In this document: piece after piece, positions 6,934 to 8,691 of the stretch
How the letters are laid out: each line of letters begins with the position of its first letter
Position numbering within the stretch: the stretch's first letter is position 1
DNA from: a virus
Lineage: Duplodnaviria; Caudoviricetes
DNA length: 64,000 nucleotides
Strand: one strand, 5' to 3'
IMG/VR virus record: IMGVR_UViG_3300014043_000503
Coordinates: 32,001-96,000 of that record
Notes under the pieces: model-generated
The model's database searches: none
The model's input: only the letters and a program-made list of their open reading frames with translations
Told to the model about the DNA's origin: nothing
Program-made: the position numbers and the translations under genes

Positions 6934-7425
6934 TTACTCATCATCACAATCACTATCGGGAATTTCACAGCTTGCTTCAGGAATTGACTGTATGATAATT
7001 TCTTTCAGGTAATCAATGCTGGCAGTTCCAAGATTTATTCCGGCAAGCGCGTCCCTGATTTTCCATACAGGTATCCAGTAGAACATGTCGGTTATCTTAA
7101 CTATCGTGTTTTCTGCGGATACTGATATTGTGTAATAGTAGTTGCCACTGCCTTCTTCGATATGTCTGTGTATAATCCCCATATTACGCAATGATTTTAA
7201 CGTCTTGCTTATGGTTGCCCTGCTGATTCTAAGCTTATTCATGATGTCATCATACTTGAGGTAGCAGCGTTCTTCCTTATACCTTGAATAATTGATGAGT
7301 GTATAAAACGCAAGCTGTCTGCTGTCCAAAAATACTGTCATAATGGATAGCTGAATGAAAGAATCCTTTTGATTGATAAGCCAGTTGCGGTATTTTACCG
7401 CTTCTTCAATGTTGTTTTTAGCCAT
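6934..7425 (-). CDS. winged helix-turn-helix protein
   Basis: YDDIMNKLRISRATISKTLKSLRNMGII; shares NxYYT and IPEAxC motifs with 6340..6867. Confidence 0.7.
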   Translation of the reverse strand: MAKNNIEEAVKYRNWLINQKDSFIQLSIMTVFLDSRQLAFYTLINYSRYKEERCYLKYDDIMNKLRISRATISKTLKSLRNMGIIHRHIEEGSGNYYYTISVSAENTIVKITDMFYWIPVWKIRDALAGINLGTASIDYLKEIIIQSIPEASCEIPDSDCDDE

Positions 7426-7548
7426 TTTTTAAAGTTTTTGAATTATTAATTAATTTACTGCAAAGTTCAAAAATTGAATTACGCACCCTATAATAGTAAA
7501 TATTGGAAACAAATATTTGATTTTTGGCATTTTATTTTGAAAATTTTT

Positions 7549-7952
7549 CTATTATGAAGTGTTCCAACATTTTTTATGTTTTGAGAATTACGCACCGTGC
7601 CCAGCATTTCATTTTAATGTTGGGCGCTTTCTTTAGACATTGTAACAGCATTTTAATTGCATTTTATAATTTTAAATCCGAGAAACCGCCATGACTGTGA
7701 AGCCGTGGCGGTTTCATTTTGGAAAAAGTCGGTGGATCCGTCAACATCCAGGCAGTCGGATGACTATTATATGTCAGCTATAGATTTAGGAATATGTGTA
7801 ATAGTTATTGGATTTTAAGATTTTGAAATTTCAATCGTGGCGGCTCAGGCTGTGAAGTCAGGACGCCACGCTTTTTCATTTACGATCATTTATTTTTTAT
7901 CATATTTCATTTGTTTTTTGCGGAGGTGTCTGTGAAGATGCCTCCGTTTTTC
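7549..7952 (+). ncRNA. putative small-RNA array (U-rich segments ending in CTGTGAAG-loop hairpins)
   Basis: CTATTAT motifs at 7549 and 7764; GC-rich hairpins 7682-7715, 7836-7870 and 7921-7946 with identical CTGTGAAG loop plus T-tracts; no ORF of note. Confidence 0.45.
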
Positions 7953-8031
7953 CATATAAAAAGCCAGGGCACCCTTTCGGAGAACCCCAGCCAAGAAAAC
8001 ATGGTAAAAGAAAAAATTGGTCGGCGATAAG

Positions 8032-8104
8032 TGGCCAGTAAGGGACTCAAACCCTTATCTACGCTTTAGGAGAGCATTGTTCTGTTCGGTTGAACTAACC
8101 AGCC
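8032..8104 (-). tRNA. tRNA-Arg(CCT)
   Basis: Cloverleaf: acceptor GGCTGGT/ACTGGCC, D stem GTTC/GAAC, anticodon arm ATGCT-CTCCTAA-AGCGT, T arm AAGGG-TTTGAGT-CCCTT; no encoded CCA; atypical D and T loops. Confidence 0.8.
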
Positions 8105-8160
8105 TCAAAGAATATTAGAAAAATTCCAGCCGATTTCGTTTGTATCCGACCATGTTTTTT

Positions 8161-8272
8161 CTATTATATGACAAGTAGTTTTTTCATAAAGAGTTAATAG
8201 ATATTTTTCATTGGTTAAAAATTAGGTTAATAATGAAAGGCGAGGACTGTGAAGCCCCCGCCTTTCGGTTTT
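8161..8272 (+). ncRNA. putative small RNA (fourth CTGTGAAG hairpin unit)
   Basis: CTATTAT at 8161, ~65-nt U-rich body, hairpin GAAAGGCGAGGAC-TGTGAA-GCCCCCGCCTTTC at 8235-8266. Confidence 0.45.
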
Positions 8273-8289
8273 GATATATATATGGTAAA

Positions 8290-8691
8290 TCATGGGATTG
8301 TGCCCTCAGGATCCTCGCCGTCTGAAGCCCCGGCCTCTCCGTCTGTGCTTTCGACGGCTACGATGTCGGCCACGGAAGCGAGACCTTCCTGAACCTTCCT
8401 CAGCAGGATCTCAGCCACGTCACCCTTGATGTCGGTTCCAATGGCCTCGTTCCTCACCTCGGGCATAGGCGGCCTCCTGTGAGGGAAGTCGAACGTGCCG
8501 CACCAAGAGGGCCTGTGCATCCAGTCTGGGTGCAGGAACTCTTCGAATGTCATTGCCGTGCTGCTGATGCTCAGGTACGAGCCTTTCTTCTCAAGCGACA
8601 CATAGTTGTCAACAAGGCTCTCCAGCTCGTCCGCTATCAAGGCCAGCTTCTTGACCTTGCCAATCAGTTCAGTTATCTCTTCCTTGGTCAT
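8290..8691 (-). CDS. hypothetical protein
   Basis: 133-aa ORF preceded by CTATTAT motif (8710-8716, minus). Confidence 0.65.
   Translation of the reverse strand: MTKEEITELIGKVKKLALIADELESLVDNYVSLEKKGSYLSISSTAMTFEEFLHPDWMHRPSWCGTFDFPHRRPPMPEVRNEAIGTDIKGDVAEILLRKVQEGLASVADIVAVESTDGEAGASDGEDPEGTIP

What the first reader, a model, noticed from the sequence alone, without database searches (positions are those of the whole stretch)
7549..8272. Array of putative small RNAs antisense to translation-start regions, each capped by a CTGTGAAG-loop hairpin
Seen: four hairpins with different stems but the identical loop C-TGTGAA-G (7695, 7850, 7930, 8247), followed by T-rich tracts, and three CTATTAT promoter motifs (7549, 7764, 8161). 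Three of the four 50-65 nt spacers before the hairpins are U-rich with repeated CAT triplets. Their reverse complements read like stacked Bacteroidetes start regions: ttaaaattataaaATGcaattaaaATGctgttacaATGtctaaa; aaaacaaATGaaatATGataaaaaataaATGatcgtaaATGaaaaa; and ttaaccaATGaaaaatatc...ctttATGAAAAAACTACTT (M-K-K-L-L, a typical signal-peptide start). On the minus strand the two frames checked (starts 8187 and 8211) stop within a few codons. A fifth unit follows the tRNA on the minus strand (anti-aagaaaacATGgtaaaa plus hairpin 7963-7992). Known: Bacteroidetes initiate at A-rich, SD-less regions. Inference: a multiplexed phage sRNA system silencing host mRNAs (possibly envelope/receptor or defence genes), with the invariant loop as a protein handle or processing signal. 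I know of no described system like this.
Basis: partly seen in the sequence, partly recalled or inferred. Interest (0 to 1): 0.78.

Follow-up and report, generated by a model that had tools for sequence, protein, structure and literature searches.

The report
Phage array of FopS-like small RNAs
A rumen Prevotella-type prophage carries a cluster of short non-coding RNA genes whose free ends mirror start-codon regions and whose terminators share one invariant 8-base cap; they resemble the known FopS translation-blocking RNAs of Bacteroides, but no transcript or target has been seen.

Summary
Four plus-strand terminator hairpins (7682-7715, 7836-7870, 7920-7947, 8235-8266) have unrelated stems and the same apex, C-U-GUGA-A-G: a GNRA tetraloop on two fixed closing pairs. 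In 14 distinct hairpins from eight related phage arrays the cap has one substitution, while the stems covary.

CTATTAT is a real promoter element of this phage. It is enriched three-fold, lies mostly in non-coding DNA, and usually sits 12-38 nt before gene starts. Three copies in this gap have no ORF behind them, only terminators.

CAT and TTTCAT are enriched over dinucleotide shuffles when the phage family is pooled. For this window alone the enrichment is borderline.

The system is not undescribed. Unit 4 resembles FopS (Rfam RF04319), though below threshold, and FopS-like units on metagenome contigs. The FopS paper already mentions a phage copy, and this scan has noted FopS-like RNAs in other phages.

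Most likely this is a phage-borne set of anti-start small RNAs with diversified seeds. It is unproven:
- no RNA run was listed;
- no host genome could be reached;
- the phage's own gene starts are not matched.

The "fifth unit" is only the tRNA trailer and terminator. I class it as a new variant of a known kind, of moderate interest.

The parts
7490..7496 (-). CTATTAT promoter element of the leftward HTH/replication-initiator-like gene (6934-7425). It is divergent from the array.
   Evidence: 64 nt before the ATG at 7425; gene family
7549..7555 (+). CTATTAT promoter element of units U0/U1, preceded by a T-run and kept in all relatives
7562..7634 (+). U0, a predicted RNA of about 73 nt. Hairpin T0 (7597-7627) has no GUGA cap; its loop shows UUUCAUUUU and its tail is UUUCUUU. 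The start is inferred, not mapped.
   Evidence: In L019 and L010 a different hairpin occupies the same place.
7628..7720 (+). U1: a U-rich stretch with three CAU (7638, 7649, 7660), then capped terminator T1 (7682-7715, cap 7695-7702). It has no promoter of its own, so it is probably a read-through isoform of U0.
   Evidence: nearly identical in L019
7764..7770 (+). CTATTAT promoter element of units U2/U3
7777..7875 (+). U2, a predicted RNA of about 99 nt with no CAU, ending at capped terminator T2 (7836-7870, cap 7850-7857)
7871..7952 (+). U3: a 49-nt U-rich stretch with four CAU (7877, 7887, 7901, 7908), then capped terminator T3 (7920-7947, cap 7930-7937). The seed part is rearranged in the otherwise about 97% identical relative L019.
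7962..8104 (-). Context, not a unit: tRNA-Arg(CCT) 8031-8104 with its own terminator 7962-7992 (GAAA loop).
   Evidence: In L012 and L018 this terminator carries the CUGUGAAG cap.
8161..8167 (+). CTATTAT promoter element of unit U4
8174..8273 (+). U4, a predicted RNA of about 100 nt. It has two anti-start seeds, GUAGUUUUUUCAUAAAG (8177-8193) and AUAUUUUUCAUUGGU...AGGUUAAUAA (8201-8234), then capped terminator T4 (8235-8266, cap 8247-8254). This is the FopS-like unit.
   Evidence: Rfam RF04319 24.3 bits, E 0.31 for the region against all families and 0.0097 for the whole phage against this one family

Best explanation
The 860-bp gap between the leftward early/lysogeny block and the replication-initiator-like genes holds three rightward promoter-to-terminator units that encode no protein. 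Each promoter carries the phage's CTATTAT element.

The units should yield five short RNAs of about 70-175 nt. Two promoters have two successive terminators, which would give a short and a read-through form.

Each RNA has a U-rich 5' part, predicted to be only partly unpaired, carrying one to four UUUCAU-type boxes. These are the mirror image of the A-rich, Shine-Dalgarno-less AUGAAA starts of Bacteroidota. Each ends in a Rho-independent terminator capped by C-U-GUGA-A-G.

By analogy with FopS and GibS, the RNAs would pair across the start codon of mRNAs and block initiation. The likely targets are host envelope or transporter mRNAs that begin AUGAAAAA.

Related phages keep the terminator scaffolds and the cap but swap the seeds, which suggests retargeting.

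The cap more likely serves termination, 3'-end stability or a shared RNA-binding factor than seed function, because in two relatives it also ends the tRNA gene.

Shown: the anatomy, its conservation, stem covariation, motif enrichment and the resemblance to FopS. Inferred: transcription, trans-pairing, host targets and the role of the cap.
For: - Hairpins and T-runs are on the plus strand only.
- The cap is invariant in 14 distinct hairpins of 5 stem types.
- The stems are 85% paired, against 63.5% in shuffles and 37-48% when partners are slid. The covariation score is 0.54 against 0.19.
- CTATTAT behaves as a promoter element across the phage, and the three array copies have no ORF within 1.4 kb downstream.
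- No conserved small ORF was seen (read).
- CAT and TTTCAT exceed dinucleotide shuffles while ATG does not.
- U4 matches the Rfam FopS model over its full length, sharing UUUUUCAU-GGU, AGGUUAAUAA and a GUGA loop. L019's U4 scores 25.6 bits.
- L010 and L015 carry GUGUUUUUCAU, the exact 5' end of FopS.
- FopS blocks susC translation by pairing at the start codon (PMC11697453).
- Arrays with the same plan sit next to a 133-aa gene whose product is only 60-63% identical.
Against: - No transcript evidence is available.
- The FopS score is far below the Rfam gathering score (24 against 56 bits), and only one unit type hits it.
- U2 has no CAU.
- Enrichment in this window alone is borderline.
- The CAU boxes are only about 10-65% unpaired in predicted folds.
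- No target was found, and the phage's own gene starts match no better than they match shuffled seeds.
- G.U pairs exceed A.C cells only 17 to 10, so strand-specific RNA pairing is only mildly supported.
- The metagenome look-alikes were fished with a pattern taken from U4, so that similarity is partly circular.
Confidence: 0.55

Rival explanations
1. The cluster is an insulator. Stacked intrinsic terminators separate the leftward early operon with its tRNA from the replication genes. The short plus-strand transcripts are by-products, or act only through transcriptional interference, and their sequence does not matter.
For: The hairpins are good terminators. T3 faces the tRNA terminator. In two relatives the same cap ends the tRNA gene, so the cap is not tied to seeds. 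U2 has no anti-start box.
Against: An insulator does not need three dedicated ORF-less promoters kept in relatives. Anti-start motifs are enriched. Unit 4 resembles FopS over the seed as well as the hairpin.
Confidence: 0.15
2. The RNAs act in cis on replication or immunity control. Small transcripts beside the initiator genes would activate or prime an adjacent AT-rich origin, or act as antisense to read-through into the initiator genes or to the pre-tRNA, as phage lambda oop RNA does next to its O gene (established knowledge).
For: The array lies directly upstream of two replication-initiator-like HTH genes and is divergent from their promoter. U4 is antisense to the stretch between the 133-aa gene and the tRNA. 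The region is AT-rich.
Against: No iterons or direct repeats beyond the 8-base cap were seen. In L019 and L015 the array stays while the initiator gene differs. Seeds turn over while scaffolds stay, which suits trans targets better.
Confidence: 0.12
3. The RNAs silence the phage's own mRNAs by pairing with their start regions. Earlier notes of this scan proposed this for other Bacteroidota phages.
For: Leads from notes e1-5867677 and e1-5779931. The phage's genes also have A-rich, SD-less starts.
Against: An ungapped complementarity scan of 253 candidate start regions of the 115-kb record gave best scores of 30-33. Shuffled seeds gave best scores of 28-32 on average and up to 40.
Confidence: 0.07
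4. CTGTGAAG is a DNA site, an operator or iteron, for a phage HTH protein, and the hairpins are incidental.
For: There are four same-strand copies of an invariant 8-mer beside HTH genes.
Against: Every copy sits exactly at the apex of an inverted repeat whose arms differ between copies and covary. A T-run follows on one strand only. The cap persists when the neighbouring HTH gene is replaced.
Confidence: 0.03

Closest known systems
FopS, the family of paralogous sRNAs of Bacteroides thetaiotaomicron (Rfam RF04319; PMC11697453)
   Same: Both have a single-stranded U-rich 5' seed containing UUUUUCAU, which pairs across the AUG of SD-less mRNAs, followed directly by a Rho-independent terminator with a GUGA loop. 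Both are multicopy. U4 aligns to the whole model. The paper notes a copy in a phage, and a true copy lies on viral contig L032 at 74.6 bits.
   Different: - The score is below the Rfam threshold, and only one unit type resembles the FopS seed.
- The units are clustered in one array with different seeds, not dispersed near-identical paralogs.
- The units are longer, about 100 nt against 65-70.
- They have the CTATTAT promoter, not the TTTG/TAnnTTTG type.
- The stems are longer and carry an invariant 8-base cap.
- The presumed host is Prevotella-like, not Bacteroidaceae.
GibS of B. thetaiotaomicron (described in PMC11697453; original paper cited there)
   Same: A trans-acting sRNA that pairs with translation initiation regions through the shared R1 seed.
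   Different: GibS is a single gene with two seeds and its own promoter motif. No sequence match was seen here.
MasB sRNA of B. thetaiotaomicron (PMC10994844)
   Same: The published northern probe implies that MasB contains GUCUGUGAAGAU, the same 12-base apex as hairpin T3. That piece folds into a capped hairpin.
   Different: This rests on a probe sequence only. The rest of MasB was not compared, and its targets and function are unrelated.
Prophage-encoded base-pairing sRNAs of enterobacteria, such as DicF of the Qin prophage (established knowledge, not tested here)
   Same: A phage-borne small RNA that blocks translation of a host mRNA by pairing at its start region.
   Different: DicF is a single RNA that depends on Hfq and targets Shine-Dalgarno sites. 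It is not an array and has no shared terminator cap.

Membership tests
FopS (Rfam RF04319) | Covariance-model score at or above the gathering score (56 bits) | tested here: not met
   U4 scores 24.3 bits and L019's U4 25.6 bits. The other units give no hit. A true FopS on L032 scores 74.6 bits.
FopS (Rfam RF04319) | Single-stranded 5' seed R1' (GUGUUUUUCAUGGUAUU...) | tested here: inconclusive
   U4 has AUAUUUUUCAUUGGU plus AGGUUAAUAA, and L019 has UUUUUCAUGGU. L010 and L015 have GUGUUUUUCAU. U1-U3 have other CAU boxes or none.
FopS (Rfam RF04319) | Rho-independent terminator directly after the seed, with a total length of about 65-70 nt | tested here: inconclusive
   The terminator is present. 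The predicted length is about 100 nt, but the 5' ends are inferred, not mapped.
FopS (Rfam RF04319) | Canonical Bacteroides promoter (TTTG at -33, TAnnTTTG at -7) | tested here: not met
   The units carry the phage's CTATTAT element instead. L032's FopS has TACCTTTG.
FopS (Rfam RF04319) | Pairs with susC-type start regions and blocks translation; bound by RbpB | not testable with these tools
   No host genome or RNA data could be reached. The phage encodes no RRM protein.
Intrinsic (Rho-independent) terminator | G+C-rich hairpin followed by a U-run on the transcribed strand | tested here: met
   All four have stems of -16 to -21 kcal/mol followed by T4-5 on the plus strand only.
Trans-acting sRNA gene (general) | Own promoter, terminator, no conserved ORF, conserved in relatives | tested here: met
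   Mini-frames are not conserved.
Trans-acting sRNA gene (general) | A discrete transcript is observed | not testable with these tools
   No RNA holder was listed.
Iteron origin or operator array | Repeated double-stranded binding sites with a common sequence beyond a short core and regular spacing | tested here: not met
   Only the 8-base cap is shared. The flanks differ and pair with each other, and the spacing is irregular at 155, 80 and 317 nt.

The most novel reading that the evidence does not exclude
This phage lineage runs a modular retargeting system: fixed capped terminator scaffolds onto which new anti-start seeds are swapped. It would silence several host envelope or transporter mRNAs at once, for example phage receptors, giving superinfection exclusion. 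The invariant C-U-GUGA-A-G cap would be a handle for a Bacteroidales-wide RNA factor also used by host sRNAs such as MasB.
Probability: 0.2. Interest if true: 0.8.

Novelty: new variant of a known kind. Interest (0 to 1): 0.5.

Why it matters
FopS-type RNAs control which nutrient transporters gut Bacteroidota make, and such outer-membrane proteins are candidate phage receptors. A temperate phage with its own multiplexed, fast-retargeting set of these RNAs would be reprogramming its host's surface or diet after transcription. That would also extend the FopS principle from Bacteroidaceae to Prevotella-type rumen bacteria. The invariant terminator cap is a concrete, testable lead to an unknown RNA-binding or processing factor in a phylum that lacks Hfq and ProQ.

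Tried and rejected
- **RNA evidence:** no RNA holder was listed for 7430-8290.
- **Relatives in public collections:** single-protein and alignment searches with the neighbouring genes, and patterns for the conserved leader and the T3 hairpin, found nothing in viral, metagenome or genome contigs. The portal gave one near-identical contig that stops short of the array. Relatives came only from exact-protein look-ups.
- **Tool closure:** This blocked a route to a host genome through portal homologues.
- **Host genome:** no handle could be obtained. Host target prediction and the test of whether the cap is common in the host were therefore not done.
- **Pattern scans:** seed plus cap, and promoter plus cap, in viral contigs gave only chance matches with no capped hairpin.
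- **blastn against GenBank phages:** no match, or chance matches only.
- **Phage-own targets:** none above shuffled controls. A first attempt with RNAduplex gave meaningless long-range duplexes.
- **The 133-aa neighbour as a possible RNA binder:** no Pfam or PHROG hit, and the structure model was too poor to search (pLDDT 55).
- **No RRM protein** in the phage.
- **Small-ORF reading rejected:** the frames are 2-13 codons long and not conserved.
- **CRISPR-like, retron or UG27-like array rejected:** there are no direct repeats, and the phage's UG27 array lies elsewhere.

Full report
**Setting**

The window is bases 32001-96000 of a 115-kb IMG/VR provirus record. Earlier notes of this scan assign it to cow-rumen Prevotella prophages; I did not test that assignment.

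The finding lies in an 864-bp gap (7426-8289) between two leftward genes:
- a 133-aa gene of unknown function (8290-8691);
- a 163-aa HTH, replication-initiator-like gene (6934-7425), followed by a second one.

The gap also holds a minus-strand tRNA-Arg(CCT) at 8031-8104, with its own terminator at 7962-7992.

**The observation**

CTGTGAAG occurs at 7695, 7850, 7930 and 8247 on the plus strand. The window has 8 copies against 2.1 expected. The other four copies are in coding DNA and are not in hairpins.

Each of the four is the apex of a stable hairpin followed by a T-run on the plus strand only.

Of about 25 credible intrinsic terminators in the whole record, only these four carry the cap. 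One terminator at the left end of the record carries CUGAGAAG. So the cap is not this phage's general terminator loop.

In 600 kb of unrelated metagenome loci, a covariance model of the capped hairpin found one distinct capped hairpin.

**Relatives**

Exact-protein look-ups for homologues of the two flanking genes gave related arrays:
- L008 is identical to the window.
- L019 is about 97% identical over most of the gap.
- L010-L018 are more distant; their 133-aa protein is only 60-63% identical to the window's.

All hold three to five plus-strand hairpins. There are five unrelated stem types in all, each capped by CTGTGAAG.

In an alignment of 14 distinct hairpins, the eight cap columns carry one substitution. 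The twelve stem pairs are 85% paired, against 63.5% in shuffles and 37-48% with slid partners. Eight of the twelve pairs change on both sides.

The structure is therefore real, and the cap sequence itself is under selection.

In L012 and L018 the tRNA terminator on the other strand also carries the cap. This argues that the cap serves termination, 3'-end stability or a general factor rather than seed function.

**Promoters**

CTATTAT occurs 35 times in the record against 11 expected. Twenty copies lie in the 11% of the record that is non-coding, and 13 lie 12-38 nt before a same-strand ORF start. These include the starts of the 133-aa gene and, at 64 nt, the 163-aa gene.

The three copies at 7549, 7764 and 8161 face right and have no ORF within 1.4 kb, only terminators 50-190 nt away. 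Relatives keep such elements before their units.

This gives three ORF-less transcription units:
- P7549 to T0 (an uncapped hairpin at 7597-7627), then T1;
- P7764 to T2, then T3;
- P8161 to T4.

U1 and U3 have no promoter of their own in this phage and would arise by read-through.

The minus-strand operon ends at 7962 and the initiator gene's promoter is at 7496. U0-U3 therefore lie in a stretch with no expected opposing transcription.

**Anti-start content**

No small ORF is conserved.

Against dinucleotide shuffles, CAT in this window's single-stranded parts is 12 against 9.1 (P 0.07). In 10 non-redundant pre-hairpin 60-mers from the phage family:
- CAT is 23 against 14.8 (P 0.0005);
- TTTCAT is 7 against 2.3 (P 0.0035);
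- ATG is not enriched.

The signal is real but modest. U2 has no CAU at all. In predicted folds the CAU boxes are only about 10-65% unpaired.

**What it resembles**

Rfam matches U4 (8201-8274) to FopS, RF04319, over the full model at 24.3 bits. That gives E 0.31 for the region against all families and 0.0097 for the whole phage against this one family. The gathering score is 56 bits. L019's U4 scores 25.6 bits.

Shared features are UUUUUCAU-GGU, AGGUUAAUAA, a GUGA loop and a U-run. U4 also begins with a second FopS-like box, GUAGUUUUUUCAU. A unit in L010 and L015 holds GUGUUUUUCAU, the exact FopS 5' end.

FopS sRNAs are 14 paralogs in B. thetaiotaomicron. Their 5' seed pairs next to the start codon of susC mRNAs and blocks initiation, and RbpB counteracts this (PMC11697453). 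[quoted passage not shown] I found one true copy on viral contig L032, at 74.6 bits.

A metagenome scan used a pattern taken from U4 and the related unit Ub of the relatives (for example L016). It returned, among many chance hits, about a dozen loci with the same seed followed by a terminator and no ORF: L109, L157, L168, L140, L189 and their copies. Their loops differ from the cap.

That similarity is partly circular, because the pattern fixed 20 bases. What the pattern did not fix is the terminator that follows each of these seeds and the lack of an ORF.

The published northern probe for MasB implies that this host sRNA holds GUCUGUGAAGAU, the 12-base apex of T3, in a hairpin.

**Evolution of the array**

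Hairpin scaffolds are kept while seeds are exchanged:
- The T3-type hairpin follows a four-CAU seed in the window, a rearranged seed in L019, a UUUCUUUCAUA seed in L010 and L015, and the U4-like seed in L012, L016 and L018.
- The type E hairpin of the relatives follows two unrelated seeds.

**Targets**

The phage's own 253 candidate start regions match the seeds no better than they match shuffled seeds.

Host silencing therefore rests on analogy alone.

**Verdict**

The best reading (0.55) is a phage-borne array of FopS-like anti-start small RNAs with diversified seeds and a constrained terminator cap. The rivals are:
- an insulator made of stacked terminators;
- cis control of replication or read-through;
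- silencing of the phage's own mRNAs;
- a DNA-binding site.

It is not a member of Rfam FopS by score or promoter type, but it probably works like FopS.

This scan has noted FopS-like RNAs in other Bacteroidota phages before. One unchecked note describes CTGTGAAG-capped hairpins with anti-start flanks in another genome. So this is a new variant of a known kind, not a new class.

Noticed in passing
L157, L168, L109 (metagenome loci), about 25-40 nt upstream of the TTTTTTCATAGGTTA seed: FopS-like units on metagenome contigs, whose organism I could not identify, are preceded by a sigma-54-type motif: TGGCACGCGGTTTGCA, and the weaker TGGCATGCTATTTGTA in L109. B. thetaiotaomicron FopS uses the housekeeping promoter instead.
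   Followed up: no
L012:142-187:+ and L018:5830-5875:+ (the window's minus strand): In two relatives the terminator of the tRNA-Arg gene carries the same CUGUGAAG cap, with three G.U pairs on that strand. In the window the same terminator has a GAAA loop.
   Followed up: partly
Supplementary file 5 of PMC11697453 (MasB northern probe): The probe sequence implies that the B. thetaiotaomicron sRNA MasB contains GUCUGUGAAGAU, identical to the apex of hairpin T3. The 36-nt piece folds as a capped hairpin.
   Followed up: partly
window 7703-7715 and 7836-7843: The 3' arm of T1 and the 5' arm of T2 share CGTGGCGG, so the outer stem of T2 is the stem of T1 with its arms swapped. This is either a trace of how the units arose or a possible alternative pairing between the two terminators.
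   Followed up: no
L010:329-1468:-: In one relative an IS605-family OrfB/TnpB gene sits between the array and the tRNA-Arg gene.
   Followed up: no
window 7597-7627, with L019 and L010 at the same place: The uncapped first hairpin T0 is replaced by unrelated hairpins in L019 and L010, while the tail TTTCTTTAGACATTG stays in L019. The L010 version pairs fully only with G.U pairs on the plus strand.
   Followed up: partly
G000:C1:655-700 (31.3 kb before the window's start): A two-way terminator at the left end of the record carries the one-base variant cap CUGAGAAG on the minus strand (28.8 bits with model R1).
   Followed up: no
L032:12849-12919:-: A bona fide FopS gene (74.6 bits, with a TACCTTTG -7 box) lies near the end of a 26-kb IMG/VR viral contig. 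This fits the remark in the FopS paper about a phage copy.
   Followed up: partly
window 7771-7849 and 8168-8246: The distance from the CTATTAT element to the cap is exactly 79 nt in both U2 and U4, although the sequences between them are unrelated.
   Followed up: no
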